Positions 478-64,000 of a stretch of 64,000 nucleotides of DNA are shown in pieces (the stretch's first letter is position 1; each line of letters opens with the position of its first letter). Both the position numbers and the translations under genes were made by a program. The notes under the pieces are model-generated. The model ran no database searches. It was not told the DNA's origin and saw only the letters and a list, made by a program, of their open reading frames with translations. Location of the stretch: positions 25,577 through 89,576 of the forward strand of contig JANNPX010000005.1 in the NCBI GenBank assembly GCA_031400455.1. The letters are read 5' to 3'. The DNA comes from Chloroflexota bacterium. Its GTDB lineage: Bacteria > Chloroflexota > Dehalococcoidia > DSTF01 > JACRBR01.

Positions 478-1689
478 TTAGCGGCGGCTGAACGCCGTTG
501 TCCGGCGGCGCCGCGTTCCGAAGCCACCGCTTGTGCGGCCAGCAGCAGCGCGTGCCGGCGCGACCTTGATCTCCTTGCCGTCCGGCGTCATGCGCGGCAG
601 GGTCCGGCCGAGACCACGCTCGATCTCGCGCCACTTCGGCAGGTCGCCGGGGCCGAGGATCGTGATCGCACTGCCGGATCGGCCCATACGGCCCGTCCGG
701 CCGACGCGGTGCGTGAACAGTTCGTGTGTCTCCGGCAGTTCGAAGTTGATGACGCGCGTGATGTGCAACACATCGAGCCCGCGTGCGGCGACGTTCGTCG
801 CAAGCAGGATAGGCGTCTTGCCGGCACGGAACTTCTCCAGCACACGGTCGCGCGCGCCCTGGCTGAGATTCCCCTGCAACACGTCGATCTGGTAGCCGAG
901 GCGTTCCAGTTTGACGCCGAGGTTACGCACCCCGTGCTTCGTCCTGCCGAAGACCAGTGTCGTGCCCTCAGTCGGCTCGTTGAGCAGCCGCTCCAGGACG
1001 GTGAACTTGTCTTCGTCCCAGACCTCGTACACGATGTGATCGATGTCCGGGCCTTCGTCGTCGTCAGCACGTGACGTCTCGATGACAACAGGCGTCCTGA
1101 GGTACTTCGTGGAGACCTTGTGTACCCACTCCGGCGTGGTCGCCGAGAAGAGCGCCGTCTGGCGCTCGCCGGGTGTCTGCGAAAGGATCCGCTCGACGTC
1201 CGGCGCGAAGCCACGGTCGAGCATTTCGTCGGCTTCATCCAGCACCATGTAGGTGATGCCGTCGAGCCGCATCGTGCCGCGGGTCAGGTGATCCAGGACG
1301 CGCCCCGGCGTACCGACGACGACTTGCGCGCCGCGATAGATCGCGTCCTGCTGCGGACCGAAGGCGCGACCTCCGAAGATGAGCGTCGTCTTGATGCCGG
1401 AGCCGCGTGCGAGCTTCTCCAGCACCTCACCGACCTGCTGCGCCAGTTCGCGCGTCGGTACGAGTACCAGCGCCTGGAGCCACTTGTTGTTGAGGTCGAT
1501 CTTTTCGATGAGGGGGATGCCGAACGCGAGCGTCTTGCCCGATCCGGTGAATGCCTGTCCGATGACGTCTTTGCCTTCGAGCAGAGGGGGGATGGAGAGT
1601 TCTTGAATCTCCGTCGGGGTTTCGATTTCCATAGCCTCAAGCGCCTTCTGGCTTGATGGCCGAAGCGTAAATTCACTAAACGATGACAA
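478..1689 (-). CDS. DEAD-box ATP-dependent RNA helicase
   Basis: Q motif (PTEIQ), TGSGKT, PTRELA, TPGR, LDEAD, SAT, ARGLD, HRVGRTGR; short basic C-tail; TTG start. Confidence 0.96.
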   Translation of the reverse strand: MSSFSEFTLRPSSQKALEAMEIETPTEIQELSIPPLLEGKDVIGQAFTGSGKTLAFGIPLIEKIDLNNKWLQALVLVPTRELAQQVGEVLEKLARGSGIKTTLIFGGRAFGPQQDAIYRGAQVVVGTPGRVLDHLTRGTMRLDGITYMVLDEADEMLDRGFAPDVERILSQTPGERQTALFSATTPEWVHKVSTKYLRTPVVIETSRADDDEGPDIDHIVYEVWDEDKFTVLERLLNEPTEGTTLVFGRTKHGVRNLGVKLERLGYQIDVLQGNLSQGARDRVLEKFRAGKTPILLATNVAARGLDVLHITRVINFELPETHELFTHRVGRTGRMGRSGSAITILGPGDLPKWREIERGLGRTLPRMTPDGKEIKVAPARAAAGRTSGGFGTRRRRTTAFSRR

Positions 1690-1932: not shown

Positions 1933-2796
1933 ATGAGCTACGAATGTATCGACTATCAGGCCAGTGACGGCATCGCCCGGCTCGTGCTGAACCGGCCGGA
2001 GCGGATGAACGCCATCAACACCCAGCTTGTGGCAGATCTCCGCTCGGCGGTCGCGGCTGCCAACGACGACTCCTCCGTGCGCGTGCTGATCCTCAGTGGC
2101 GCCGGCCGCGCGTTCTGCGCTGGCTACGATCTCGATTGGGGCACGAAGGCGGAGGACGCCTCGCAGAAGGCGATGTCCGGCCAGTGGGATCCCGTGCGTG
2201 ACTACCTGGGCATGTCCAGAAACGTGCGCGCCTACATGTCGCTCTGGGAGAGCCCGAAGCCCGTCATCGCGCAGGTGCACGGCTGGTGCGTCGGCGGCGG
2301 CACCGACCTCGCGCTCTGCAGCGACCTCATCTACATGGCCGAGGACGCGCAGATCGGCTACCCGCCGGCCCGCATCTGGGGCGAGCCGACGACGATGATG
2401 TGGGTGTACCGCCTCGGGCTCGAACACGCCAAGCGGCTGATGCTCAGCGGCGAGTCGCTCACCGGTATCGAGGCCGAGCGCCTCGGGCTCGCGTCGAAGG
2501 CGGTGCCCGTCGAGCGGCTCGCCGACACTGCTGAAACAATGGCGCGAAAGCTGGCTACCATCCCGCTCAACCAGCTCGTCATGAGCAAGCTGCTCGTGAA
2601 CCAGGCGTACGAGAACATGGGCCTCCGCACGACGCAGATGCTCGGTACGGTGTTCGATGGCATCGCGCGCCACACACCCGAAGGCATCGCCTGGCGGGAC
2701 GAAGCGATGCGCGACGGATTCCGAGAAGCCGTCCGCCGCCGCGACGCCCCCTTCGGCGACTACGGCGAGCGCAAGCGCGACGAGCGTCACCCGTAG
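1933..2796 (+). CDS. Crotonase/enoyl-CoA hydratase superfamily protein
   Basis: LNRPERMNAI, AFCAGYDL and GWCVGGG oxyanion-hole motifs. Confidence 0.93.
   Translation: MSYECIDYQASDGIARLVLNRPERMNAINTQLVADLRSAVAAANDDSSVRVLILSGAGRAFCAGYDLDWGTKAEDASQKAMSGQWDPVRDYLGMSRNVRAYMSLWESPKPVIAQVHGWCVGGGTDLALCSDLIYMAEDAQIGYPPARIWGEPTTMMWVYRLGLEHAKRLMLSGESLTGIEAERLGLASKAVPVERLADTAETMARKLATIPLNQLVMSKLLVNQAYENMGLRTTQMLGTVFDGIARHTPEGIAWRDEAMRDGFREAVRRRDAPFGDYGERKRDERHP
2737..2778 (+). repeat. Direct repeat copy 1 (crotonase 3' end)
   Basis: 39/42 identical to 3691-3732; 30-nt exact core CCCTTCGGCGACTACGGCGAGCGCAAGCGC (2749-2778). Confidence 0.95.
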
Positions 2797-2842
2797 CGCT
2801 GTCGCTCGATCGACGGGCGCACGCACGCGTGGGAGGGAGAAC

Positions 2843-3682
2843 ATCACAAACTCTGACGACAAGGCCAGCCCGGATACCCCTTACGCGCTCGGTCACTCGG
2901 AAAGAGAGCTGGAACGCCTGGGTCGGCAGGCCCGTGTAATCGATCCGATCACGCGAGGATTCTTTCGTGACGCCGGCATCGGGCCGGGCATGCGCGTGCT
3001 TGATGTGGGCTGCGGCGCCGGCGATACCACGTTTCTCGTCGCGGGCATCGTCGGAGAGACTGGTGAAGTGGTCGGTGTGGATCGGGCTCCCGCTGCGCTG
3101 ATGGCTGCCAGGGCTGGCGCGAATAGGCGCTCGCTTCGCAATGTGTCATTCGTCGAAGGCGATGCTGCGGACATGACGTTCGATCGACCCTTCGACGCGG
3201 TTACCGGCCGTTACGTCCTCTTGTTCCAGCGCGATCCGGCGGCCATGCTCCGAAAGGTTGCCGCTCATGTGCGGCCGGGCGCGTCGATCGTCTTCCATGA
3301 ATTGGATTGGGACGGCTCGCGATCGTCTCCGCCGGCGCCGATCTATGACACCGGCACGCGATGGATCGTCGAGACGTTTCGGCTCATGGACGCCGAGACG
3401 AGCATGGGGCTCAAGCTGTACGCGACGTTCGTCGATGCGGGTCTGACCGCTCCCTCCATGCGGCTGGAAGCCGTCGTCGGTGCCGGCGCGAACGGTACCG
3501 ATGCTGTTGGTTTGGTGGCAGATCCCTTGGGCACGCTGTACGCCGACACGATTAGTCTGGGTGTGGCGACGGCGGCTGAGATGGGAATGGAAACGCTGGC
3601 TCGCCGTATGCAGGACGAAGTCACGGCGAACAACAGCGTGCTCGTGGCGCGCTCCGAGGTGGGGGCATGGTCGCATGTCTAG
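2843..3682 (+). CDS. Class I SAM-dependent methyltransferase; start uncertain (in-frame ATC after the SD)
   Basis: YALGHSERELERL N-terminal motif, VLDVGCGAGD motif I, VVGVD, FVEGD, FDAV; no in-frame ATG/GTG/TTG between 2796 and 2990. Confidence 0.85.
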   Translation: MTNSDDKASPDTPYALGHSERELERLGRQARVIDPITRGFFRDAGIGPGMRVLDVGCGAGDTTFLVAGIVGETGEVVGVDRAPAALMAARAGANRRSLRNVSFVEGDAADMTFDRPFDAVTGRYVLLFQRDPAAMLRKVAAHVRPGASIVFHELDWDGSRSSPPAPIYDTGTRWIVETFRLMDAETSMGLKLYATFVDAGLTAPSMRLEAVVGAGANGTDAVGLVADPLGTLYADTISLGVATAAEMGMETLARRMQDEVTANNSVLVARSEVGAWSHV

Positions 3683-3690
3683 CCTTGGAT

Positions 3691-3732
3691 CGCTGCGATG
3701 CGCCCTTCGGCGACTACGGCGAGCGCAAGCGC
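3691..3732 (+). repeat. Direct repeat copy 2 (orphan copy of the crotonase 3' end followed by TAA)
   Basis: Encodes RCDAPFGDYGERKR then TAA (3733-3735), versus RRDAPFGDYGERKR in copy 1. Confidence 0.95.
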
Positions 3733-3760
3733 TAACAAAACGCGCGCGGCGGAGGGACAA

Positions 3761-5047
3761 ATGACGCACCCAATCGACACACTCGTGATTGGTGCCGGCG
3801 CCGCCGGCCTCGCGGCTGCGCGCCACCTTCATGATGCCGGCGTCAGCGCTGTGGTCGTTGAGGCGCGAGACCGGATCGGCGGGCGCGCCCACACCTCGTA
3901 CGACTTTGCGTCACACCCCGTCGAACTCGGCGCAGAGTTTATCCACGGCGAGAACGTGTGCACGTGGGCGCTCATGGAGCGTTTCGGTATGCACGCACTC
4001 GACCAGGTGCCGCTCCTGAACGTGCGCGGGTACGTCGACGGCAAGCTCTACGGCCACGACGAATTCCTCCGGTCTCCGATGATTCGTGCTGCCTTCTCGA
4101 TGAAGAGCGTCGCGACGGACTGGCTTGCGGCCGGACGCGGCGATGCGTCGTTGCTCGAGGTTGCGCGCGTCACGAACAGTGAGCGGGGTGTGAGCCTCAC
4201 CGCTGGAGAGTGGGCAACTTGGTCGCATTTCTTCGCCCAGTATCACGCCGCGGATCCCGATCAGCTCGGTGCGGCCGGCTGGCTGGAGCCGTCGTTCGAG
4301 AACGACGGCGTGCGACTGAATTTCCGCATCACCGAGGGCTATTCGGCGCTCCTGGCCGCGTTCGCTGACGGGCTCGATGTTAGGCTCTCAACGCCGGTCC
4401 AACGCATCGAGTGGGACGCGGCCGGCGTGCGCATTCACGCGGCTGGCGAAACACTCGATGCCGAGCGCGTGATCGTCACGCTGCCGCTGGGAGTGCTGCA
4501 GGAGGGCGGCATCGTGTTCGATCCCCCGCTACCGGATGACAAGCAGCACGCGATCGAAGGTCTGGGCGCGGGGGCGATCGCAAAGATCATCCTGCGATTC
4601 GACGAACAGCTCTGGCCAGATGACCTGACGTTCCTGTTCACCGAGCGAGAGAGCCAGGTCTGGTGGCGCCCTGGTCGCTGTCGCGATGACGAGGCGCCCG
4701 TGCTGATGGCGTTCTTCGGCGGCAGTTCCGTGGCGCATTTCCGGGCGTTCGGAGAAGATGCGCCCCTCGCCGCGCTGGACGATTTGGAAACGATGCTCGG
4801 CCGCAAGCTCGGCTCGCATCTCGTCAGCTCACGCTTCGTGGACTGGCAAGCTGACCCCTACACACGCACGGGCTACTCGAGCGTGCCGCCGGGCGGCGCC
4901 GGACTCCGCGACGCGCTCGCCGCACCCATTGGGAGTGTGCTGTACTTCGCCGGCGAAGCGACGAACCGCAACCGCCCCGCGACGGTCCACGGCGCGCTTG
5001 AATCGGGGTACCGGGCAGCGCACGAGGTCATGTCGCTCGTGCGCTAG
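3761..5047 (+). CDS. Flavin monoamine/polyamine oxidase family FAD oxidoreductase
   Basis: GAGAAG, EARDRIGGR, LGAEFIHG, YFAGEAT, TVHGALESG; GGAGG SD. Confidence 0.92.
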   Translation: MTHPIDTLVIGAGAAGLAAARHLHDAGVSAVVVEARDRIGGRAHTSYDFASHPVELGAEFIHGENVCTWALMERFGMHALDQVPLLNVRGYVDGKLYGHDEFLRSPMIRAAFSMKSVATDWLAAGRGDASLLEVARVTNSERGVSLTAGEWATWSHFFAQYHAADPDQLGAAGWLEPSFENDGVRLNFRITEGYSALLAAFADGLDVRLSTPVQRIEWDAAGVRIHAAGETLDAERVIVTLPLGVLQEGGIVFDPPLPDDKQHAIEGLGAGAIAKIILRFDEQLWPDDLTFLFTERESQVWWRPGRCRDDEAPVLMAFFGGSSVAHFRAFGEDAPLAALDDLETMLGRKLGSHLVSSRFVDWQADPYTRTGYSSVPPGGAGLRDALAAPIGSVLYFAGEATNRNRPATVHGALESGYRAAHEVMSLVR

Positions 5048-5083
5048 GCGCGCTGCGCATGTCGCGATCCGCGGCTCGGGGCT

Positions 5084-5296
5084 CTACGCCTCTTCGTACT
5101 TGAAGGAGAGCTTGATCTTGGCGCGATACAACGAGACCTTGCCGTCCTCGACCGTCATGTCGAGCGTCACGACTTCGGCGATCCGCAGATCGCGCAACGT
5201 CCCACCGGCTCGCGCCACGGCCGCCGAAGCCGCCTTCTCCCACGAGTCCGGGCTCGTGCCAATCAATTCGATGATCTTGTAAACGCTCTCTGCCAT
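5084..5296 (-). CDS. Dodecin (flavin-binding protein)
   Basis: 70 aa, VYKIIELIGTSPDSWEKAA...LRDLR...YRAKIKLSFKYE; GGAGG SD. Confidence 0.92.
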   Translation of the reverse strand: MAESVYKIIELIGTSPDSWEKAASAAVARAGGTLRDLRIAEVVTLDMTVEDGKVSLYRAKIKLSFKYEEA

Positions 5297-5500
5297 CTGA
5301 ATCACCTCCGTGCGAATGTAGTTTGCCTGCTGCGATCGTATACCCGCTGTCAATAGCCACCGTTCCTCGCCGTCCAACATGCGCCCCCAGCAGGTGACGC
5401 CTCCGCAACGGAGTTCACGAACCGCGCTGCACCTTCACGCACGCGTGAGCGTTCGTTACGATGACGCGTCCCAGCACCCGTCTCAACGAATGGAAGCGCG

Positions 5501-6757
5501 ATGCCCGCCCCGCAAGCCCCTGTCACGCAGCCTGCTGCAGGACTGCGCGGCTACGGACAGCGGACCTTCTCGTCACTCGCCATCCCGGACTTCCGCGTGC
5601 TCTGGATCGGCAACGTTGGCACCATGTTGGGCCAGTGGGTGCAGTTTGCCGCCCAGGGATACCTGGTCTTCTACCTCACAGGCTCGCCGTTCCAGGTGGG
5701 CGCCGTAGGGTTCGTGCGCGGTGTCTCCTCCGTGACGGTCGCGCCGTTCGCGGGCACCGTGACCGATCGCTTCAGCCGCCGGTCAGTGCTGATGGTGATG
5801 ACCGCTATCAGCGCCACCACCGCCACGCTCGTCGCCGCGCTCATTATCACGGACGTGATCCAGATCTGGATGCTCTACCCGCTCTCGGCACTCGAGGGCT
5901 TCGGCGACGCCGTGAACCAGCCGGCCCGGCAGGTGATGATCTACGACGTTGTCGGCGCGGACGACCTTCCGAACGCCGTGGCGGTCAATTCGCTCGGCTC
6001 GAACACGATGCGGATCGTCGGGCCGTCGATGGCGGGCGCACTGATCGGCGCCGTCGGCATCGAGGCGGCGTTCATCGTTCAGGCCGCCGCGTACACGTTC
6101 TCGGTGTACGCCACCTCGCGCATCAAGACGAAGGGCATGCCCGTCGGCCGCGGCACGTCCACCGTGCTGCGCAGCATGCTCGATGGCGTCGACTACGCCC
6201 GGACGCATCGTGACGTGCTGCTGCTGGTGATCATGGCCGCGCTCCCCAGCCTGCTCGTCTATCCGTACGTGCAGTTCATCCCGGTGTTCGCGAGCGACGT
6301 GTTGCACGTAGGCTCGTTCGGATTCGGCTTCCTCGCGTCCGCCGTCGGCTACGGGTCGATCGTTGGTGCCCTGATCGCGGCGAACCTGACGCGCATCGAG
6401 AAGCGCGGGCAGATCCTCGTCTGGACGACGTTCGTCTACATGGCGCTCGTGACAGGCTTCGCGCTCTCGAACATGTATGCGTTGTCGTTCGCACTGCTGG
6501 TCATCGCCGGCGTCGCCAACTCGATCTACCTGATGTTCAATCAGGTCATGGTGCAGCTCATCGTGCACGACGAGTATCGCGGCCGCGTGATGTCGTTGTA
6601 TGTGATGACGAGCGGCATCACGCCGTTCAGCGCGTTGCTCATGGGCGCGCTGATCGATCTCTTCGGCCCGCAGGTGACGGTCGCCTGCTTCACCGGACTA
6701 GCTTCGGTGATCGTTCTGGTGATCGGCATCACGAGCAAGCGGCTCCGCCAGATCTGA
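5501..6757 (+). CDS. MFS transporter
   Basis: About 12 hydrophobic segments, GTVTDRFSRR motif A, YRGRVMSLY in the C-terminal half. Confidence 0.92.
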   Translation: MPAPQAPVTQPAAGLRGYGQRTFSSLAIPDFRVLWIGNVGTMLGQWVQFAAQGYLVFYLTGSPFQVGAVGFVRGVSSVTVAPFAGTVTDRFSRRSVLMVMTAISATTATLVAALIITDVIQIWMLYPLSALEGFGDAVNQPARQVMIYDVVGADDLPNAVAVNSLGSNTMRIVGPSMAGALIGAVGIEAAFIVQAAAYTFSVYATSRIKTKGMPVGRGTSTVLRSMLDGVDYARTHRDVLLLVIMAALPSLLVYPYVQFIPVFASDVLHVGSFGFGFLASAVGYGSIVGALIAANLTRIEKRGQILVWTTFVYMALVTGFALSNMYALSFALLVIAGVANSIYLMFNQVMVQLIVHDEYRGRVMSLYVMTSGITPFSALLMGALIDLFGPQVTVACFTGLASVIVLVIGITSKRLRQI

Positions 6758-6772
6758 CCGTTGAGGCTCGCC

Positions 6773-7216
6773 TTATCGCCGACGTCCGCCAAACAGCCCT
6801 TTGATCTGGTCGATCACCCCACCGCCATCTCGACCCTTCGCGCGCGCCCACGCCTTCTGCGCACCCGCCGAACGGCCGAGCCCACGCACTCGCTCTCGCA
6901 TCACTTCTCGTACGCGCTCCGACTCTCCGGCGTCCAGCCAGAAGCCATGGCCCCCAGCACACGCGTCCAGTTCCAGGTTGTACGCACGATAGTTGAAGGC
7001 GTGCATCGGCTCATTGCAGGCCGGGCAGAGCAGTACGCTCTGATGCTTGGCGAACTCGATCATCCCGGTGCGCTGAGCCTCGTCCGCAACGGTCGATTCC
7101 AGCTCGGCTAGTTCATCGTAGTCGTACCAGGCGCCACGACAGGCGGCACATCGGTCGACCGTGATGCCGTGCTCCGTCTCAGGCTGAAGCTCGTTAGCGT
7201 CTCGCGGGCAGATCAT
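6773..7216 (-). CDS. Protein with two TFIIB-type zinc-ribbon (zf-TFIIB) domains
   Basis: CPRD...VDRCAACRGAWYDYDEL and CPAC...LDACAGGHGFWLDAGE repeats. Confidence 0.8.
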   Translation of the reverse strand: MICPRDANELQPETEHGITVDRCAACRGAWYDYDELAELESTVADEAQRTGMIEFAKHQSVLLCPACNEPMHAFNYRAYNLELDACAGGHGFWLDAGESERVREVMRERVRGLGRSAGAQKAWARAKGRDGGGVIDQIKGLFGGRRR

Positions 7217-7423: not shown

Positions 7424-9079
7424 ATGGCAGAAGTAGACGGCGCAACACTCATTGCCCGCAGCCTCAAGCAGCACGGCATCGAGTACATGTTCGGCATCGT
7501 CGGCGTGCCCGTCGTACCGATTGCGTTTGCGGCGCAGCGCGAGGGCATCCAGTACTTCGGCATGCGGCACGAGCAGTCGGCGTCGTACGCGGCGCAGGCC
7601 GTCGGCTACTTGACCGGACGGCCGGGCGCGTGCCTCGCGGTGTCCGGCCCCGGCATGACCAACGCGATCTCCGGACTCGCGAACGCCTGGTCGAACCGCT
7701 GGCCGATGATCCTCCTCGGCGGCGCGTCCGACATTTCGCAGCACGGCATGGGCGCCTTCCAGGAAGCGCCGCAGGTCGATGCCGCTCGGCCGTGGTGCAA
7801 GTACGCCGCAGAGGTCGACCGCGTCGACCGCATCCCGTACTTCGTCGAGCAGGCCGTGCGCACGTCGATCTACGGTCGGCCCGGGCCGGTGTATCTCGAC
7901 CTCCCCGCGGACGTCATCGGCGGAAAAGTCGACGAAGCAGCCGCGCCGCAACGCCCGCGCGTGCCGGACGCGCCGCGATCGTTCGCCGATCCCGCGTCGG
8001 TCGAAGCCGCGATGGCCGCGCTGAAGTCCGCCGAGCGCCCGCTCGTCATCGTTGGCAAGGGCGCCGCCTACGCGCACGCCGAAGACGAAGTCCGCGCCTT
8101 CATCGAGTCAACGCAACTCCCGTTCCTCGCGACCCCAATGGGGAAGGGCGTGGTGCCCGACGACCACCCGCTGTCCGTGGGCGCGGCGCGATCCTTCGTG
8201 CTGCAGAACGCCGATCTCGTCCTGCTGATGGGCGCGCGCCTCAACTGGATCCTCCACTTCGGACTGCCGCCTCGATTCAACCCCGACGTGCGCGTGATCC
8301 AGATGGACATCGCCGCGGAGGAGATCGGCACGAATGTGTCGACAGAAGTAGCGCTCGTCGGCGACGCGAAGGCGATTACCGGACAACTCAACGGCGTGCT
8401 GCGCGAGCAGCCGTGGCAGTTCGCTGCCGAGAACACGTGGCGCACCGGCATCGCGAAGAAGATCACCGACAACCAGGCGACGACACAAGTGCAATTCGAC
8501 GACGACAGCGTGCCGATGAACTACTACCGCGTGCTGCGTGAGATCCGCGACATCCTGCCGCGTGATGCAATCATTGCGAGCGAAGGCGCGAACACGATGG
8601 ATATTGGCCGCACGGTGCTACCGAACTTCCTGCCGCGCCACCGGCTCGATGCGGGCAGCTTCGGCACGATGGGCGTCGGCCTGTCGTTCGCGATTGCGGC
8701 GCAGGCCGTCAATCCGGGCGCGCGCGTCGTCGCCGTCGAGGGTGACTCCGCATTCGGATTCAGCGGCATGGAAGTGGAAGTGGCGTGCCGGTACGGGATG
8801 CCGATCACGTTCATCATCCTCAACAACAATGGCATCAGCGGCGGGCCGAGCACCATCGATCGATCACGTCCGCTGCTCCCGATGGCGCTGTTGCCGCAGG
8901 CGCGATACGAGAAAGTGATCGAGGCGTTCGGTGGCGATGGCTACTTCGTCGAGACGCCGGACCAGTTGCGCCCGACGCTCGAGAAGGCGTTTGCGAGCGG
9001 CAAGCCCAACGTCGTGAACATCATGATCAACGCGCAGGCGCAACGGAAGGCGCAAGAGTTCGGATGGCTCACGCGGTAG
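7424..9079 (+). CDS. ThDP-dependent 2-hydroxyacyl-CoA lyase / oxalyl-CoA decarboxylase family enzyme
   Basis: FGIVGVPV, MRHEQSA, GAFQE, GDSAFGFSGME...NNNG ThDP motif; HACL1-like C-terminus RKAQEFGWLTR. Confidence 0.9.
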   Translation: MAEVDGATLIARSLKQHGIEYMFGIVGVPVVPIAFAAQREGIQYFGMRHEQSASYAAQAVGYLTGRPGACLAVSGPGMTNAISGLANAWSNRWPMILLGGASDISQHGMGAFQEAPQVDAARPWCKYAAEVDRVDRIPYFVEQAVRTSIYGRPGPVYLDLPADVIGGKVDEAAAPQRPRVPDAPRSFADPASVEAAMAALKSAERPLVIVGKGAAYAHAEDEVRAFIESTQLPFLATPMGKGVVPDDHPLSVGAARSFVLQNADLVLLMGARLNWILHFGLPPRFNPDVRVIQMDIAAEEIGTNVSTEVALVGDAKAITGQLNGVLREQPWQFAAENTWRTGIAKKITDNQATTQVQFDDDSVPMNYYRVLREIRDILPRDAIIASEGANTMDIGRTVLPNFLPRHRLDAGSFGTMGVGLSFAIAAQAVNPGARVVAVEGDSAFGFSGMEVEVACRYGMPITFIILNNNGISGGPSTIDRSRPLLPMALLPQARYEKVIEAFGGDGYFVETPDQLRPTLEKAFASGKPNVVNIMINAQAQRKAQEFGWLTR

Positions 9080-16882: not shown

Positions 16883-19705
16883 ATGGCCGAAAAGCCCGCA
16901 CCTGATCTCGACGCGCTGCTCCGTTATCGGCAGAAGCGCAATTTCGCGAAGACGCCCGAGCCGGCATCAGGCGCCCCCGATCCGGCTCACCCGGATCTGA
17001 CATTCGTCATCCAGCAGCACGCTGCGACGCGCATGCACTGGGACTTCCGGCTCGAAGTCGATGGCGTGCTCGTTTCGTGGGCCGTCCCGCGCGGGCCAGC
17101 CCTCAACCCGAAAGACAAGCGCATGGCCGCGCACGTAGAGGACCATCCATTCGACTACGGTGGCTTCGAAGGCGTCATCCCGAAAGGGAACTACGGTGCC
17201 GGCCAAGTGATCGTCTGGGACAACGGCACATACACGCCAGACGAAAAGGGTGAGTACTCATGGGGCGATCCCGTCGCTGGTAGCGCCCGCATGCACGAGG
17301 GACTGGCGGCCGGCAAACTCTCGTTCACCATGCGCGGCAAGAAACTGCGCGGCTCGTGGACGCTCGTGCGGACGGCGCGCGACCCGAAGGATTGGTTGCT
17401 GATCAAGCATCGCGACGAGCACGCCTCCACTCGCGACGTACTCGAAGAAGATCGCTCGGTGCTCAGTGGTGTCACCATCCAGGACCTCAAGGAAGGCCGC
17501 ATGCCGCGCATGGCCGCCGCAGGTGGCGCCCCGCATCCAGATGCCCGCGAGGCCGCGTTTCCTGACGCGAAGTCCTTGCGTCCGATGCTGGCGACGCAGG
17601 TTGCGCGCCCGTTCTCTCGCGCCGGCTGGCTCTTCGAGCCGAAGTTGGACGGCGTGCGAGCGCTCGCGTTCCTGTCGCGAACAGACGACGGTGTGGAGCC
17701 ACGCATCGATCTCCGGAGCCGCCGCGGCAACGCGATGAACGTGCAGTACCCCGAGGTCGTCGCCGCAGTCGCTGCGCAATCCGCGCGCACCGCGATATTC
17801 GACGGCGAAATCGTCGCGATGAACGAGCACGGTGTGCCCGACTTCCAGGAGATGCAGCCGCGGATGAACCTCTCACGCCCCGCCGAGGTCGAACGAATCG
17901 CTGCCACAACGCCCGTGTACTACTACGTCTTCGATCTGCTCTATCTGGATGGTTACGACCTGACCCGCGTACCACTTGTCGAGCGCAAGGCGCTGCTCCG
18001 TCGCGCACTCGTTCCGTCCACACATCTCATGCTCGTGGATCACGAACGCGACGATGGCGAATCACTCTACGAGGCGGCGTCGAAGCTCGGCTTCGAGGGT
18101 GTGGTGGCGAAGCGCGGCACGAGCATCTACGAGCCAGGCGTCCGAACCGGCGCGTGGCTGAAGATCAAGAACGTGATGGAGCAAGAGTTCGTCGTCGGCG
18201 GCTACACCGAGGGTGAAGGCTCCCGCAGCAAGACGTTCGGCGGACTGCTGGTCGGCTACTACGACGGCGACGATCTGCGATTCTCGTCGAGCGTCGGCTC
18301 CGGCCTCACGGATGTGAATCTCACCCAAATCAAGAAGCAGCTCGCCAAGCGCGAAGTCGAAACGTCGCCGTTCGCGGATCCGCCGACGACAATCGGCGGG
18401 CGCTGGGGCGGTGGCAAGGCGACGAAGTGCTACTGGGTGAAGCCCGAGCTGGTCGCACAGGTGCGCTTCAGCGAGTGGACGCGCGATGGCGGCCTGCGCG
18501 CTCCCGTCTTCAAGGGCCTGCGCGTCGATATCGACCCGCGCAGCGTGCGACGCGAAGATCCGTCCGTGCAGCCGGTCGATGTGGTACCCGATGACGTGTC
18601 GGCCTCAGGTGACGACGTAACACGCGCGGTCGCGTCGATCGTCGAGCAACTCGATTCGAATGCGAAGGCCGACTTCGTGCTCGACGTGGGCGGCGTTCCG
18701 ATCAAGCTGACGAATCTCGATAAGGAGTTCTGGCCTGCGACGAAAGATCACCCGCCCAGGACGAAGCGCGAGCTGATTCGCTACTACGCGCGCGTTGCGC
18801 CGTACCTGCTGCCTCATCTGACGGATCGTCCGCTGACGCTCACGCGCTATCCGAACGGCATCGAAGGGTCGTCGTTCTACCAGAAGCATTGGCCCTCGCC
18901 GTTCCCGAAGGAGTTCCGCGTCGAGCGCGCATCGATCTACTCGGCACACAACGACCAGGATGGCGACTACGTTCTCGTCAACAACCTGCAGACGCTAGTT
19001 TGGCTCGCGCAGCTAGCAGACCTCGAGATCCACGCCTGGATGGCGCGCGTCAACCCGGACCCGGACGCACACGGATTGCCGACGGTCTTCGCGGGCTCCG
19101 AAGAGACGATGGATCGCAGCGTGCTCAACTATCCGGACTTCATGGTCTTCGACCTCGATCCCTACATCTACGCGGGCACCGAGAAGAAGGGCGAAGAGCC
19201 CGCGCTGAACCGCCGCGCCTTCGAGAAGACACGCGAGATGGCGTTCTCGCTGAAGGAACTGCTCGAACAACTCCGGCTGTCGTCGTTCGTGAAGACCACC
19301 GGCAAGACGGGCCTGCACATCTACGTGCCCGTGCTGCGCCAGTACACCTACGACGAGATCCGCGCCGCCAGCGCGGCCGTCGGGCAGTTTATGGTGCAGC
19401 AACATCCCGATGATCTAACCATGGAGTGGACGACCGTGAAGCGCACCGGGATGATCTTCTTCGATCACAACCAGAACACGCGCGGCAAGACTCTCGCGGC
19501 CGAATACTCGCTGCGCCCGTCCCCGCAGGCGGCCGTCTCTGCGCCAGTCACGTGGGAAGAGTTGCCGCACGCGTATCCCACGGATTTCGATATCGATACG
19601 GAACCCGACCGCCTCGCGAAAGTCGGCGATCTGTGGGCGGATATTCTCGCGTCAAAGCAGGATCTCAGAGCACTGATCGAAAGTGGCCCACCCATTGACA
19701 GTTGA
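16883..19705 (+). CDS. ligD: NHEJ DNA ligase D (phosphoesterase-ligase-polymerase)
   Basis: FVIQQHAATRMHWDFRLE (PE domain), EPKLDG, FDLLY, EGVVAK, WLKIK (ligase), FDLDP and KTTGKTGLH (primase-polymerase). Confidence 0.95.
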   Translation: MAEKPAPDLDALLRYRQKRNFAKTPEPASGAPDPAHPDLTFVIQQHAATRMHWDFRLEVDGVLVSWAVPRGPALNPKDKRMAAHVEDHPFDYGGFEGVIPKGNYGAGQVIVWDNGTYTPDEKGEYSWGDPVAGSARMHEGLAAGKLSFTMRGKKLRGSWTLVRTARDPKDWLLIKHRDEHASTRDVLEEDRSVLSGVTIQDLKEGRMPRMAAAGGAPHPDAREAAFPDAKSLRPMLATQVARPFSRAGWLFEPKLDGVRALAFLSRTDDGVEPRIDLRSRRGNAMNVQYPEVVAAVAAQSARTAIFDGEIVAMNEHGVPDFQEMQPRMNLSRPAEVERIAATTPVYYYVFDLLYLDGYDLTRVPLVERKALLRRALVPSTHLMLVDHERDDGESLYEAASKLGFEGVVAKRGTSIYEPGVRTGAWLKIKNVMEQEFVVGGYTEGEGSRSKTFGGLLVGYYDGDDLRFSSSVGSGLTDVNLTQIKKQLAKREVETSPFADPPTTIGGRWGGGKATKCYWVKPELVAQVRFSEWTRDGGLRAPVFKGLRVDIDPRSVRREDPSVQPVDVVPDDVSASGDDVTRAVASIVEQLDSNAKADFVLDVGGVPIKLTNLDKEFWPATKDHPPRTKRELIRYYARVAPYLLPHLTDRPLTLTRYPNGIEGSSFYQKHWPSPFPKEFRVERASIYSAHNDQDGDYVLVNNLQTLVWLAQLADLEIHAWMARVNPDPDAHGLPTVFAGSEETMDRSVLNYPDFMVFDLDPYIYAGTEKKGEEPALNRRAFEKTREMAFSLKELLEQLRLSSFVKTTGKTGLHIYVPVLRQYTYDEIRAASAAVGQFMVQQHPDDLTMEWTTVKRTGMIFFDHNQNTRGKTLAAEYSLRPSPQAAVSAPVTWEELPHAYPTDFDIDTEPDRLAKVGDLWADILASKQDLRALIESGPPIDS

Positions 19706-26189: not shown

Positions 26190-27620
26190 ATGGTTGCGAA
26201 AGTCACACCGGAACTCGCGAAGACGGACGGCTACAAGTTCGGATTCAACGACAACGACAACGCCGTCTACTCGTACCGCACTGAGAAGGGGCTGAGCGAG
26301 GACGTCGTGCGCGAGATCTCGCGCGTGAAGAACGAGCCGCAGTGGATGATGGACTTCCGCCTCAAGTCGTATCAGCACTTCCTCGAGAAGCCGATGCCGA
26401 CCGGCTTCTGGGGCGGCAGCATCCAGAACTACGATCTCGACTTCAACGACATCTACTACTACGCCCGCGCGTCCGACCGCCCCGAGGCGGACTGGTCCGA
26501 CGTGCCGGAGTACATCAAGGACACCTTCGACAAGCTCGGCATCCCCGAGGCCGAGAAGAAGTCGCTGATCGCTGGCGTCGGCGCGCAGTACGACTCCGAG
26601 GTGGTGTACCACAGCATCCGCGCCGACCTCGAGAAGCTCGGCGTGATCTTCACCGACACGGACAGCGCGATGCGCGACTACCCGGACATGTTCCGCCAGT
26701 ACTTCGGCACCATCGTGCCGCCGGCCGACAACAAGTTCGCGGCGCTGAACAGCGCGGTGTGGTCGGGCGGTAGCTTCGTCTACGTCCCGCCGGGAGTGAA
26801 GGTCGATATCCCCCTGCAGGCGTACTTCCGCATCAACAAAGAGAACATGGGCCAGTTCGAGCGGACGCTGATCATCGCCGACGAGGGCAGCTACGTGCAT
26901 TACGTCGAAGGTTGCACGGCACCGACGTACTCGACCGACTCGATGCACAGCGCCGTCGTCTAGATCATCGTGAAGAAGAACGCGCGCGTGCGCTACACGA
27001 CGATCCAGAACTGGTCGACGAACGTCTATAACCTCGTGACGAAGCGCGCGGCAGCGTACGAGAACGCCGTCATGGAGTGGGTCGACGGCAACCTCGGCTC
27101 CCGTCTGACGATGAAGTACCCAAGCGTCTACCTGATGGAGCCCGGCGCGCACGGCGAGGTCCTCTCGCTCGCGATGGCCGGCGACGGCCAGCACCAGGAC
27201 GCGGGCGCGAAGATGGTACACGCGGCGCCGGACACGACCTCGACGATCATCTCCAAGTCCGTGTCGAAGGGCAGCGGTCGCACGAGCTACCGCGGCGCGC
27301 TCAAGGTGTACCCGGGCGCTGTCCGCTCGAAGGCCACCGTCCGCTGCGACGCGCTCCTGCTTGACGAGGAATCGCGCTCCGACACGTACCCGCTGATGGA
27401 TATCGAGGAGGAGCAGGTGAACATCGGCCACGAGGCCTCCGTCTCGAAGGTGGGAGAAGACCAGCTCTTCTACCTGCAGAGCCGCGGCCTCACCGAGGTC
27501 GATGCCACCAAGATGATCGTCAACGGCTTCGTGGAACCGATCGTGAAGGAACTGCCGATGGAGTACGCCGTGGAGCTCAACCGCCTGATCGAGCTCCAGA
27601 TGGAAGGCGCTGTTGGCTAG
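26190..27620 (+). pseudogene. sufB: SufB interrupted by an in-frame TAG at 26961-26963 (nonsense allele or sequence error)
   Basis: Both halves are in one frame and SufB-like ([48 protein letters not shown]); the TAG sits where the conserved Glu (GAG) of HSAVVE belongs. Confidence 0.8.
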
Positions 27621-61044: not shown

Positions 61045-64000
61045 ATGAACCGTAGACGGATCCTGTTAGCGTTGTGCGTTCCAGCCATTGCGCTGGCGGG
61101 TCTCCTTCCGTTCGGCCAAACCTCGCCGACGACCGTTGGCGCGGCAACCCCGACGCCCGCAGTGGGCGGTCAGTGGTCGACCACGGCGACGTGGCCGTTC
61201 ACCGCCGTGCACATGAGCCTGCTCCGTACCGGGAAGATCGCCATGTGGGACGGCTGGGAGATGGACACATTCGCGCGGGTGTGGGATCCGGCCAACAACA
61301 CGTTTGCCGACATCACCAATCTGTCCGGCCTCTTCTGCTCCAGCCACTCCACGTTGTCCGATGGCCGGCTGCTGGTCGTCGGGGGCCACAACGGCGGCGA
61401 GATCGGCATCAAAGACACCAACCTCTACAACCCCGGCACCGATAGCTGGACCCGGGTTGCCGACATGGCGTACCCGCGGTGGTACCCCAGCACCAACATC
61501 CTTGCCGACGGTCGCGTCGTCGCCATCAGTGGGCAGATCACGTCGGACGTCTTCGCCGATACTCCCGAGGTCTACGACCCGGTCGCGAACACGTGGACAT
61601 CCCTGAATGTGAACACGTCCGACCTCCGCGAGCCGGAGTATCCGCTCAGCTACTTACTGCCGAACGGAAAGATCTTCGTGCTGGGCGCTACGCAGGGGAT
61701 TGCACGCACGCTCAACGTGGCCGCGGAGACGTGGACCAACTCTGGAACGCTGCCGACAAAGCACGGTTCAGCCGCCATGTACCGTCCCGGCAAGATCCTC
61801 TACACCGGTGGCACCAGCACCGGTCCGGACAGCCCTTCGCAGAAGAATGCAAACGTCATCGACGAGACCGTTGGCTCCCCCTCCTGGCGCGCGGTTGCGT
61901 CCATGGCGTACCCACGATATGACCACAATCTCATCGTCCTGGCAGACGGCAAAGTGATGGCGATGGGCGGCGCGACCACCATCACGCGCGACGTCTCCAC
62001 AGTCGGCACGCTCCCCGCCGAAATATGGGATCCGGCGACCGAGCAGTGGACCACAGTGGCCACTATGCAAGACCCCCGCATGTACCACTCGACTGCCGTA
62101 CTCCTCCCAGACGCACGGGTGCTTGTTGCGGGCGGTGGTCGCCTCGGCAGCGGTGGCGGTGCGGCGATCAACTACAACACGTCGCAGATCTACTCCCCGC
62201 CTTACCTCTTCAATGGCGCCCGACCGGCCATCACCAACGCGCCAACTCAGACCGGCTATGGCGCATCGATGACCGTCGACACGCCGGATGCGGCCAGCAT
62301 CGGCGCTGTTGCGCTCATCCCGCTCGCGTCGAACACGCACACGCTCGACACGAACCAGCGCTACATCGACCTGAGCTTCACCGCGGGCGCCGGCTCGCTG
62401 AACGTGCAGGAACCGGCCAACGGCAACATCGCGCCACCAGGCTCCTACATGCTGTTCATCCTCAAGACGAACGGCGTGCCCTCCATCGCAAAGATCATCA
62501 ACGTGGGCGGGCCAGCGATCGACAGTCAGCCACCAGCGGTGTCACTGACGTCGCCTGGCGACGGCGCGGCCGTGTCCGGAATGCAGAGTCTCGCGGCAAC
62601 CGCCACGGACGCTGGCGGCGTATACAGCGTGCAGTTCCAGGTGGACGGCGCAAACATCGGCGCCGCCGACACGACGGCGCCATTCGAGATCTCCTGGGAC
62701 TCCAGTTCCGTGAGCAACGGCGCCCACACCATCACCGCACGAGCGCGCGACACGTACGGCAACATCGGCACGGCAACGGCAGCCGTTTCCACCTCGAACG
62801 CCGGCACGAGCGGACTCGTTCTCGCCCTGGGATTCAATGAGGGAGGCGGCGGGTTGGCCGGAGATGCGTCTGGCCGGAACAATACTGGCTCGCTGATCAA
62901 CGCGACGTGGTCAGCGAGCGGAAAGTACGGGAAAGCCGCGAGCTTCAACGGGACAAGCGCCCTCATCAGCGTGCCCGATGCGCCATCTCTCGATCTCACC
63001 ACGGGTATGACGCTCGAAGCCTGGGTGAAGCCGTCTGCGCTGAGCGGATGGCGTACCGTGTTCACCAAGGAGTCCGTTTCCAGCCCGATTCCCCGGAGCG
63101 GTTGGCAAGAGGTCGTGACGTATTACTTGTACGCGAACACCGACAGCAACCACCCCAACGGAGGGCTCGCCACCGCGGCGAACAGCTACGCCGTGAATGG
63201 CACGAACGAGGTCGCGCTGAATTCATGGACGCACGTTGCCGTGACGTATAACGGTTCGAACCTCCGGATGTACGTGGGTGGCGTGCAGGTGGCAAGCCAG
63301 GCGGCGAGCGGCAACATCGCCACGTCCGGCGATTCGCTGCGTATTGGCGGCAATAACATCTGGGGAGAGTTCTTCCAGGGGCTGATCGATGAAGTGCGTG
63401 TGTACAACCGCGCACTCAGCGACGGCGAGATCCAGGCAGACATGGCCGCACCAATCGATAGTGGGAGCGCCACGCCCACGCCGACGCCCGTCGGCACGTC
63501 CACGCCGACTCCCACCCGGACGCCGACGAACACGCTGACGCCGACACGGACGCCGACCCACACCCCGACTCCGACACGGACGCCGACCGACACGCCCGTG
63601 CCACCCACGAACACGTCGACACCAACCCGGACCCCGACGTACACCGCGACACCGAGCGCCACTCCGACGAACACGCCGCTACCGCCGACCATGACACCCA
63701 CGCCGACTCAAACGCCGACGCCCACCGCTACCGTCGAGATCGCGGGTACGGTCACGCCTATCGACACACCCACGCCCACGGCGACGCATACGCCGACGCC
63801 GACTGCTACGGTCGATCCGCTGGACCTCGATGTGGACGGCGTGATCGATACCGGTGACAACTGCCCATCGATCTACAACCCAGCCCAGACCAACACAGAC
63901 GGCAACAACACCGCCCTGAATCGCCCTGGGCAGGACGTAATCGGTGATGCATGTGACTCCGACATCTCAGGCGACGGATACGGCAATCTGGCCAAACTAG
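61045..64000 (+). CDS. Secreted copper radical oxidase (galactose/glyoxal oxidase, AA5-like) + DUF1929 + Ig + LamG + PT linker + TSP3-like repeat; 3' truncated
   Basis: Hand-translated from the ATG at 61045, open through the catalytic and terminal parts checked (absent from the ORF track because it runs off the window); LFCSSH, RWYPS, RMYHST, SPPYL, SNTH; DNCP..YNP.Q and GDACD at the end. Confidence 0.9.
63472..63815 (+). repeat. Coding low-complexity Pro/Thr repeat (ACGCCG-like units)
   Basis: TPTPTP linker inside the oxidase ORF. Confidence 0.85.

What the first reader, a model, noticed from the sequence alone, without database searches (positions are those of the whole stretch)
2737..3735. 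Methyltransferase cassette bracketed by a 42-bp duplication of the crotonase 3' end
Seen: 2737-2778 and 3691-3732 are 39/42 identical with a 30-nt exact core, 954 bp apart. Two of the three differences are synonymous third positions. The downstream copy ends in TAA just before the amine-oxidase SD, while the upstream copy reads on into a different tail (DERHP*). Inference: the ancestral arrangement was crotonase...GERKR* followed by amine oxidase, and a roughly 0.95-kb methyltransferase unit integrated into the crotonase 3' end while restoring the gene. This is att-like behaviour with no integrase nearby. Recombination between the repeats would excise it cleanly, so it may be a minimal mobile or switchable cassette that targets a protein-coding gene.
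Basis: partly seen in the sequence, partly recalled or inferred. Interest (0 to 1): 0.65.

Follow-up and report, generated by a model that had tools for sequence, protein, structure and literature searches.

The report
Orphaned crotonase gene end: recombination scar
A 42-base copy of the end of a crotonase gene sits between a methyltransferase gene and an amine-oxidase gene; it is most likely the leftover of a DNA exchange between related strains at a gene-shuffling hotspot, not the footprint of a new mobile cassette.

Summary
The repeat is real: 2737-2778 and 3691-3732 match 39/42 with an exact 30-mer. It is the only exact repeat of 20 nt or more in the 64 kb.

The downstream copy is an orphaned crotonase (ECH) 3' end, 14 codons plus TAA. 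It is still joined to the spacer and start of the amine oxidase (AO) gene, as in relatives where a full ECH directly precedes AO.

The cassette idea does not hold:
- The DERHP* tail is ancestral. L001 and L193 have it without a methyltransferase (MT).
- ECH-MT adjacency recurs in diverged relatives (L060, L197).
- MT has lost its ATG.
- I found no integrase, inverted repeats, attC-like site or second copy.
- The MT segment has ordinary single-copy depth.

The space between ECH and dodecin-MFS is a variable islet holding MT, GNAT, AO, a truncated AO or nothing. Strains about 99.5% identical on both flanks lack MT and are only about 91% identical across AO-dodecin-MFS. Their breakpoint falls exactly at the end of the core.

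Best reading: a scar with one homologous junction and one illegitimate junction (HFIR-like). A Campbell-type insertion of MT through the 42-bp homology is not excluded. Interest is low.

The parts
478..1689 (-). DEAD-box helicase. Conserved left neighbour of the locus.
   Evidence: Pfam DEAD plus Helicase_C. Syntenic in most relatives.
1933..2796 (+). Enoyl-CoA hydratase/crotonase (ECH), 287 aa, ending GERKRDERHP*.
   Evidence: Pfam ECH_1, E 9e-41. 584 relatives found; the closest are Dehalococcoidia/Chloroflexota MAGs.
2737..2778 (+). Upstream repeat copy: native ECH codons 269-282. The exact 30-nt core is 2749-2778.
   Evidence: Identical in near-identical strains from other runs.
2779..2796 (+). 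ECH tail DERHP plus TAG. Ancestral to this clade and not brought in by MT.
   Evidence: L001 has DEYHP* and L193 has DEYHP*. Remnants CCGTAG and CATCCGTAG sit after the premature stops in L060 and L197.
2843..3682 (+). Class I SAM-dependent methyltransferase (MT), 279 codons, with ATC where homologues have ATG. GC3 is 0.72 against 0.89 for ECH.
   Evidence: Pfam Methyltransf_31/25/11. Alignment A1 places the homologues' Met on the window's Ile. The only canonical in-frame starts are 2657 and 2990. The source-contig gene call is 230 aa (P0121). GC3.
3683..3690 (.). 8 nt (CCTTGGAT) between the MT stop and the relic. The illegitimate junction lies here.
   Evidence: No homology to ECH left of 3691. 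No relic-like sequence in the MT-downstream spacers of L060 or L197 (shuffle p 0.4-0.8).
3691..3735 (+). Orphaned ECH 3' end (relic): RCDAPFGDYGERKR plus TAA, from a tail-less ECH allele carrying GAT GCG.
   Evidence: The same GAT GCG allele occurs in L197, L193 and an X3 contig that starts at 3696.
3736..3760 (+). Original ECH-to-AO spacer with the Shine-Dalgarno sequence GGAGGG.
   Evidence: Read from the sequence. Homologous spacer in the X3 contig 3696-3970. ECH-to-AO gaps of 9-36 nt in relatives.
3761..5047 (+). Flavin amine oxidase (AO), 428 aa.
   Evidence: Pfam Amino_oxidase, E 5e-73. Directly preceded by a full ECH in L189, L193 and the P0005 contig.
5084..5296 (-). Dodecin.
   Evidence: Pfam Dodecin. 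Syntenic in L001, L193 and the P0005 contig.
5501..6757 (+). MFS transporter. Right-hand conserved anchor of the islet.
2779..6500 (.). Strain-specific divergent block. Closest strains are about 99.5% identical outside it. Inside they lack MT and are about 91-92% identical in AO-dodecin-MFS. The right boundary lies somewhere in 6210-6778.
   Evidence: X3 mismatches per piece: 26/275, 34/436 and 47/547 inside, against 2/420, 1/277 and 0/280 outside. X4: 15/234 and 29/351 inside, against 0/401, 1/399 and 0/235 outside.

Best explanation
The downstream copy is the orphaned last 14 codons and stop of a second, tail-less crotonase allele. It marks the left end of an ECH'-AO-dodecin-MFS segment that now sits behind the resident ECH(tail)-MT pair. 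The stretch between ECH and dodecin/MFS is a variable islet in this Dehalococcoidia lineage. Strains swap its contents by recombination that uses the very conserved ECH 3' end on the left and the MFS region on the right as homology. A normal double crossover gives a clean swap: ECH, stop, AO, with MT lost. Here one end was joined without homology, 8 nt after the MT stop. That kept MT and trapped 45 nt of the incoming (or displaced) ECH. This matches homology-facilitated illegitimate recombination (HFIR) and 3'-end displacement. What is shown: the relic, its allele type, the native tail, the variable islet, the divergent block and the absence of mobile-element hallmarks. What is inferred: the direction of the event, its linear one-sided-homology topology, and its recency. 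The 30-42 nt repeat could allow rare RecA-type deletion of MT, but nothing indicates a programmed switch.
For: - Relatives with a full ECH directly upstream of AO, with 9-36 nt spacers: L189, L193, the P0005 contig and an X3 contig. The relic plus spacer plus AO is therefore an old ECH-AO junction.
- The tail is ancestral and continuous with the upstream copy. Homology ends exactly at 2778/3732, and there is none left of 3691. So one junction is homologous and one is illegitimate.
- ECH-MT adjacency is shared with L060 and L197/L198 at about 71-72% MT aa identity. L197 carries MT-GNAT-AO, so the relic occupies the slot between MT and AO.
- Two of the three differences are synonymous and match natural alleles in L197, L193 and X3. 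This fits two alleles that diverged while both were functional.
- Islet contents vary: nothing, GNAT, MT-GNAT-AO, MT-AO, AO, or a truncated AO that leaves its own 3' remnant.
- Strains about 99.5% identical on both flanks are about 91% identical in AO-dodecin-MFS and lack MT. Their left breakpoint falls exactly at the core end.
- No relic in the L060 or L197 spacers, so the scar is specific to this lineage and probably young.
- I recognised no integrase or transposase. I read 53 ORF translations by eye and ran Pfam on ten ORFs, nine I could not name by eye plus LigD. There are no terminal inverted repeats and no GTTRRRY/RYYYAAC sites. The relic shows no significant fold, z -0.6. No promoter or terminator lies between the genes.
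- The MT-bearing unitig has depth 25.3 in X1 and 13 in X2, equal to the genome baselines of about 22-25 and about 14-15.
- HFIR and orphaned 3' fragments are documented outcomes of this kind (PMC5361080; PMC3240628).
Against: - The parental sequences are unknown. The direction of the event and any microhomology at 3690/3691 cannot be checked.
- The nearest strains, with ECH 99-100% identical up to 2778, all lack both the tail and MT. Gain of tail plus MT by a tail-less ECH-AO strain is about as parsimonious as loss in those strains.
- The allele pattern fits a Campbell-type crossover in the core equally well: upstream GAC GCC as in an MT-less strain, relic GAT GCG as in the MT-bearing L197.
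- All three differences lie in the first 12 nt of the repeat (p about 0.02 if uniform). This could also mark a crossover or gene-conversion boundary.
- All strain-level evidence comes from k=31 unitigs, which cannot link the left variants to the right context across the 30-mer.
Confidence: 0.62

Rival explanations
1. Campbell-type gain of MT. A roughly 954-bp circularised fragment from an ECH(tail)-MT strain (ECH codon 269 through the MT stop plus 8 nt) integrated by a single RecA-type crossover within the 30-42 nt of shared ECH 3' sequence. The recipient was an ECH-TAA-AO chromosome. This duplicated the homology on both sides of MT. It has the first reader's topology but needs no integrase, and it can be reversed by the same homology.
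For: The nearest strains have ECH identical up to 2778 followed by a stop and AO or an AO remnant, with no tail and no MT. The allele pattern fits: the left copy matches the recipient type (GAC GCC) and the right copy matches a type-A allele (GAT GCG, as in L197). Single crossovers of truncated circles do produce such duplications experimentally (PMC3240628). MT has lower GC3 than its neighbours.
Against: It needs two rare steps: illegitimate circularisation, then a crossover through only 30-42 nt. No isogenic empty site was found: the MT-less strains differ in the spacer and are 9-17% diverged in AO. MT lies next to ECH in L060 and L197 with homologous left junctions, so vertical presence is simpler. 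MT has no ATG, so it makes odd cargo.
Confidence: 0.17
2. Local duplication followed by deletion. A segment containing ECH was duplicated in tandem, or a second full ECH-AO copy was imported, giving ECH-MT-ECH2-AO. A later deletion removed ECH2 up to codon 268.
For: Deletions that leave gene 3' remnants do happen at this locus: in X4, X5, X7 and X8 AO is reduced to its last ~24 codons. The organism encodes LigD.
Against: None of about 90 related loci shows two close ECH copies here. The two copies differ in tail type, so a simple in-situ duplication does not fit. This route needs an extra step compared with direct trapping.
Confidence: 0.1
3. Site-specific minimal cassette. The MT unit is mobilised in trans by an integrase that recognises the ECH 3' core as an att site. 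It can excise as a circle and switch the ECH C-terminus and AO coupling.
For: There are direct repeats at both ends, and the unit is a single ORF of cassette size. The breakpoints of several strain variants coincide with the core end. The k=31 graph cannot exclude a circle.
Against: I recognised no integrase in the 64 kb. There is no attC-like structure and no core sites. The core occurs nowhere else in the window, and in public genomes only at ECH 3' ends. This MT allele is fully present only in the two source runs. Close MT homologues sit in other contexts without the repeat. Depth equals that of the chromosome. The tail is ancestral ECH sequence. Breakpoints at the end of the last conserved stretch are what ordinary homologous recombination produces.
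Confidence: 0.04
4. Assembly artefact. The contig threads an unrelated MT-bearing sequence into the ECH-AO junction through the shared 30-mer.
For: The k=31 unitigs are ambiguous at the 30-mer.
Against: The unitig 2749-3732 itself contains MT followed by the relic's variant bases, so the orphan fragment exists in reads. Only three unitigs meet at the core in X1 and X2, and all have about the genome's depth. The 42-nt repeat is shorter than a read.
Confidence: 0.03

Closest known systems
Homology-facilitated illegitimate recombination (HFIR) and 3'-end displacement that leaves orphan fragments (Rhs/CDI C-terminal displacement; T6SS effector-immunity arrays in Vibrio cholerae, PMC5361080; de Vries & Wackernagel 2002 and Prudhomme et al. 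2002, as cited there)
   Same: A conserved upstream gene serves as the homology anchor. A variable downstream module is exchanged between relatives. One junction has no homology. A displaced 3' gene fragment stays next to its old downstream partner.
   Different: This is a housekeeping-type crotonase with small metabolic genes, not a toxin-immunity system. Only one orphan is present, not an array. The orphan is only 45 nt. Donor, recipient and direction are inferred, not observed.
Campbell-type single-crossover integration of a circular DNA carrying a truncated homologous segment (duplications of 109-950 bp seen in E. coli, PMC3240628)
   Same: A direct duplication of exactly the shared segment flanks the inserted DNA, and the event can be reversed by the same homology.
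   Different: The homology here would be only 30-42 nt, and no circular form or plasmid origin is known.
Integrase-borne genomic islands that target the 3' end of a gene and restore it (tRNA/tmRNA-targeting islands, including the ssrA islands I recall from Dehalococcoides; this is from memory and was not checked here)
   Same: Direct repeats made of a gene's 3' end bracket the inserted DNA, and the target gene stays intact.
   Different: There is no integrase. The unit is under 1 kb with one ORF. The supposedly restoring 3' end is the ancestral sequence. No recurrent insertion with identical boundaries was seen.
Integron gene cassettes
   Same: A single promoterless ORF of about 1 kb lies next to a short repeat, inside a co-oriented gene row.
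   Different: There is no intI or attI, no attC-like fold and no GTTRRRY/RYYYAAC core sites.
Flexible genomic islets between conserved core genes
   Same: Conserved flanks (DEAD-ECH and dodecin/MFS) enclose strain-variable content: MT, GNAT, AO, a truncated AO, or nothing.
   Different: Nothing essential. The relic is simply a legible scar of one exchange.

Membership tests
Site-specific integrative element with attL/attR made from a gene's 3' end | Integrase or recombinase gene inside or next to the element | tested here: not met
   The 954-bp unit holds only MT. I recognised no integrase or transposase among 53 ORF translations read by eye, the gap ORFs, and ten ORFs run through Pfam. Most ORFs were not scanned with Pfam, so this test is incomplete.
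Site-specific integrative element with attL/attR made from a gene's 3' end | Direct repeats of the target's 3' end at both element ends | tested here: met
   42-nt repeat, 39/42 identical, with a 30-nt exact core.
Site-specific integrative element with attL/attR made from a gene's 3' end | The element supplies a foreign replacement 3' end for the target gene | tested here: not met
   The DERHP* tail is homologous to the tails of L001 and L193, which lack MT, and to remnants in L060 and L197.
Site-specific integrative element with attL/attR made from a gene's 3' end | Isogenic empty site and an excised circular form | tested here: inconclusive
   MT-less relatives exist, but their spacer and AO are diverged. 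k=31 unitigs cannot show A-C or circle junctions. Depth equals the chromosomal baseline.
Integron gene cassette | attC site (structured imperfect inverted repeat with RYYYAAC/GTTRRRY core sites) plus intI/attI | tested here: not met
   Neither core-site motif occurs in 2700-3800. Fold z-score is -0.6. I recognised no intI.
Transposon, IS or MITE with target-site duplication | Terminal inverted repeats and a short target-site duplication (usually under 15 bp, from my own knowledge) | tested here: not met
   The best inverted match between the unit ends is 5-6 nt. The duplication is 42 nt, and one side continues as native ECH sequence.
HFIR / 3'-end displacement scar | One junction lies within conserved homologous sequence | tested here: met
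   The upstream copy plus tail is a continuous native ECH 3' end. Strain variants all break at the core end.
HFIR / 3'-end displacement scar | The other junction has no homology and traps or displaces a gene fragment | tested here: met
   No similarity left of 3691. The 45-nt ECH fragment stays attached to its old downstream spacer and AO.
HFIR / 3'-end displacement scar | The two sides come from diverged lineages | tested here: inconclusive
   The tail-versus-no-tail difference and two synonymous allele differences match natural alleles. There is a block of about 91% identity inside flanks of about 99.5% relative to the nearest strains. However, AO N-terminal similarity is still highest to L060, at 75%, and the parents are unknown.
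HFIR / 3'-end displacement scar | Microhomology of a few nt at the illegitimate joint | not testable with these tools
   It needs the parental sequences, which were not found.
Campbell-type single-crossover duplication | The duplicated segment equals the homology carried by a circular donor | tested here: inconclusive
   The topology and allele pattern are compatible. No circular donor can be observed.

The most novel reading that the evidence does not exclude
The 30-nt crotonase 3' core could serve as a recurrent docking site for small single-gene units. The 954-bp MT unit would excise as a circle and re-insert, by RecA or by an unlinked recombinase. That would toggle the crotonase C-terminus (GERKR* versus GERKRDERHP*) and the coupling of AO to ECH. 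It would be an integrase-less, gene-end-targeted cassette system in Dehalococcoidia.
Probability: 0.06. Interest if true: 0.6.

Novelty: new member of a known kind. Interest (0 to 1): 0.22.

Why it matters
The scar shows clearly how uncultured Dehalococcoidia strains reshuffle small accessory genes next to a conserved gene. It also shows that a conserved peptide in a GC-rich genome can create an exact 30-nt repeat that mimics an att site. That is useful as a caution for scans that flag gene-end duplications as mobile-element footprints. It opens no new mechanism. It would matter more only if reads showed active excision.

Tried and rejected
- **Exact-protein look-ups.** The look-ups for ECH and the 341-aa MT ORF found nothing. 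The AO look-up returned only two short Logan contigs, both of which start at the 30-mer.
- **27-mer scans.** Scans of the metagenome and genome collections gave only a distant ECH (L190), L060 and a Piscinibacter ECH. They gave no strain variants.
- **Copy-number heterogeneity.** I first read the depths of the three unitigs (25.3 against 20.4 in X1; 13 against 19 in X2) as heterogeneity of the MT segment. I rejected this after calibrating on 20 kb. The MT unitig sits at the genome baseline, and unitig depths scatter by 15-25%.
- **AO identity to L060.** I first took AO as only 58% identical to L060's and so discordant with ECH. That figure was inflated by the IS-disrupted part of L060's AO. 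Over the intact 105 aa it is 75%, the highest among relatives.
- **Decayed relic in relatives.** I looked for one in the MT-downstream spacers of L060 and L197 and found none.
- **Mobile-element and expression signals.** Integron, transposon, terminator, promoter and RNA-structure readings of the relic were all negative.
- **MT in other contexts.** MT homologues elsewhere show no ECH-type repeat.
- **Mini-ORF.** The 22-codon ORF 3667-3735 through the relic is easily explained by chance, and I did not pursue it.
Full report
**1. Observation**

The window carries, on the + strand:
- a crotonase/enoyl-CoA hydratase gene (ECH, 1933-2796)
- a class I SAM methyltransferase gene (MT, about 2843-3682)
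- a flavin amine oxidase gene (AO, 3761-5047)

A DEAD-box helicase lies upstream on the other strand, and dodecin and an MFS transporter lie downstream.

The stretches 2737-2778 and 3691-3732 are 39/42 identical and 954 nt apart, with an exact 30-mer at 2749-2778 = 3703-3732. This is the only exact repeat of 20 nt or more in the 64 kb. No shuffle reproduces even one match at up to 3 mismatches. Similarity ends sharply at 2778/3732 and at about 2737/3691.

The upstream copy is ECH codons 269-282 and reads on into DERHP*. The downstream copy reads RCDAPFGDYGERKR-TAA, 25 nt before the AO start. In two public runs from one study (X1, X2) the k=31 unitigs break exactly at the 30-mer. The repeat is therefore in the raw data.

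**2. What the exact core does and does not show**

A crotonase only 71% identical overall (L190) shares 39 identical nt with the upstream copy. A Piscinibacter crotonase (L192) shares 27 exact nt and matches 38/40. The peptide RDAPFGDYGERKR is conserved, and in GC-rich genomes it is written with the same preferred codons. Exact identity of the core is therefore weak evidence for a recent in-situ duplication.

**3. The locus in relatives**

The organism belongs to a Dehalococcoidia/Chloroflexota MAG lineage. Between ECH and dodecin/MFS I found these arrangements:

| Source | Content between ECH and dodecin/MFS |
|---|---|
| L003, L004, L005, L008, L014, L017 | nothing (DEAD-ECH-MFS) |
| L001 | ECH(tail)-GNAT-dodecin-MFS |
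| L197/L198 | ECH-MT-GNAT-AO |
| L060 | ECH-MT-AO |
| L189, L193, P0005 contig | ECH-AO(-dodecin-MFS) |
| X3 contig | 2778 joined through TAA plus 16 other nt to the AO ribosome-binding site |
| X6 | another ECH-TAA variant |
| X4, X5, X7, X8 | ECH identical to the window up to 2778, then TGA, 5 nt and the last ~24 codons of AO (AO deleted, its own 3' remnant left) |

This is a variable islet with conserved flanks.

**4. What the relic is**

ECH directly precedes AO, with 9-36 nt spacers, in several diverged relatives. An X3 contig that starts at 3696 carries a homologous spacer. The relic plus spacer plus AO is therefore an old ECH-AO junction.

**5. Why MT is not a cassette that restored the gene**

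- **The tail is ancestral.** L001 ends GERKRDEYHP* with no MT or AO. L193 ends ..DEYHP* directly before AO. L060 and L197 have premature stops followed by the remnants CCGTAG and CATCCGTAG. The upstream copy plus tail is thus a continuous native ECH end. The only non-homologous joint is at 3690/3691.
- **ECH-MT adjacency is old.** It is shared with L060 (MT 72% aa identity) and L197 (71%), and the left junctions are homologous.
- **The copies look like different natural alleles.** One has the tail and the other does not. The two synonymous differences (GAT, GCG) also occur in L197, L193 and an X3 contig.
- **MT has ATC where every homologue has ATG.** The only canonical in-frame starts either overlap ECH by 140 nt or drop 49 conserved residues. 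The source contig's own gene call is 230 aa.
- **Mobile-element hallmarks are absent.** I recognised no integrase or transposase in the 64 kb. I read 53 ORF translations by eye and ran Pfam on ten ORFs, nine I could not name by eye plus LigD. The unit has no terminal inverted repeats and no GTTRRRY/RYYYAAC sites. The relic shows no significant fold (z -0.6). No promoter or terminator lies between the genes. There is no other copy of the core.
- **This MT allele is rare.** It is fully present only in X1 and X2. Fragments 94-98% identical turn up in three other runs. MT homologues in other contexts lack any ECH-type repeat.

**6. Population evidence**

Strains in X3 and X4, from other studies, are 99-100% identical to the window up to 2778 and again from about 6780 onward. 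In between they are only about 91-92% identical across AO-dodecin-MFS, and they lack MT. The left breakpoint coincides with the end of the core, as it does in X5, X7, X8 and X6.

This is the expected footprint of homologous exchange between relatives about 9% diverged. The crossovers resolve in the last long stretch of identity before the variable region.

In X1 and X2 the MT-bearing unitig has depths of 25.3 and 13. These equal the genome baselines of about 22-25 and about 14-15 measured over 20 kb. Only three unitigs meet at the core. Nothing therefore suggests loss, amplification or a free circle. A k=31 graph cannot see such junctions, however, and a minority under roughly 20% cannot be excluded.

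**7. Mechanism**

The structure needs one homologous junction (in the ECH 3' end or the MFS region) and one illegitimate junction (8 nt after the MT stop).

My preferred reading is as follows. An ECH'-AO-dodecin-MFS fragment from a tail-less relative entered a resident ECH(tail)-MT-... chromosome. It recombined homologously on the right. On the left it joined without homology, trapping its first 45 nt. This matches homology-facilitated illegitimate recombination and the orphaned 3' regions described for Rhs, CDI and T6SS loci (PMC5361080). A clean double crossover of the same kind of fragment would give the MT-less strains seen in X3 and X6. L060 and L197 have no relic, so the scar is specific to this lineage and probably young. 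The genome encodes a three-domain LigD. That is compatible with end-joining activity but proves nothing.

The main rival is a Campbell-type gain of tail plus MT through the 30-42 nt homology. Single crossovers of truncated circles do produce such duplications in experiments (PMC3240628). The allele pattern fits this rival equally well, and the nearest strains lack MT. I therefore give it 0.17 against 0.62 for the preferred reading.

The other rivals score lower:
- Local duplication followed by deletion: 0.10. No relative shows two close ECH copies.
- An integrase-driven cassette: 0.04.
- An assembly artefact: 0.03.

**8. Comparison and verdict**

The structure works like an HFIR or 3'-displacement scar in a flexible islet. 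It fails the tested defining features of integrase islands, integron cassettes and transposons. It is a new instance of a known kind of event and is of low general interest. Its practical lesson is that gene-end duplications in GC-rich genomes can mimic att sites. The decisive test is junction-specific mapping of the raw reads from the source samples, which I could not run because those runs are held only as k=31 contigs.

Noticed in passing
window 2843-2845 (MT start), 2657, 2990: The methyltransferase has ATC where all aligned homologues have ATG. The only canonical in-frame starts overlap ECH by 140 nt or remove 49 conserved residues. The gene may be weakly translated or freshly inactivated.
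   Followed up: partly
window 26190-27620, stop at 26961-26963: The SufB reading frame is interrupted by an in-frame TAG (..[13 protein letters not shown]..) inside an otherwise intact suf operon. It could be a sequencing error, a pseudogene or recoding.
   Followed up: no
window 16883-19705: Three-domain LigD (phosphoesterase, ATP-dependent ligase, primase-polymerase), the bacterial end-joining ligase. No Ku gene was noticed beside it.
   Followed up: partly
runs X4, X5, X7, X8 at window 2778 joined to about 4978: In four runs from at least three studies, ECH identical to the window is followed by TGA, 5 nt and the last ~24 codons of AO. AO has been deleted in these strains, leaving its own 3' remnant.
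   Followed up: partly
L060 about 8130-8400: The AO gene of the closest MAG is truncated after about 115 codons. It runs into an IS3-like transposase (rve-type) C-terminal reading frame.
   Followed up: no
L001 6865-7520; L197 1078-1608: A GNAT acetyltransferase is another module of the islet. The L001 copy, 77% identical to L197's, appears frameshifted near codon 124.
   Followed up: partly
window 3656-3735: A 22-codon ORF (MVACLALDRCDAPFGDYGERKR*) starts at an ATG inside the MT 3' end. It is preceded by a Shine-Dalgarno-like GAGGTGGGGG and runs through the relic to the old ECH stop, 25 nt before the AO start. It is probably fortuitous but could keep translational coupling to AO.
   Followed up: no
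window 1333-1411: Nine differences from the X3 strain cluster in 80 nt of the DEAD helicase gene, inside an otherwise ~99% identical stretch. This looks like a small separate recombination patch.
   Followed up: no
window 61400-63700: This stretch has unusually low third-position GC and no clean ORF. It is followed by a Gly/Val-repeat ORF (63186-63701). No Rfam family matched.
   Followed up: no
L190 about 700-770; L192 3010-3049: Distant crotonase genes (71% overall nt identity; a betaproteobacterial MAG) carry 27-39 nt identical to the window's ECH 3' end. This shows codon-level convergence on the conserved C-terminal peptide.
   Followed up: partly
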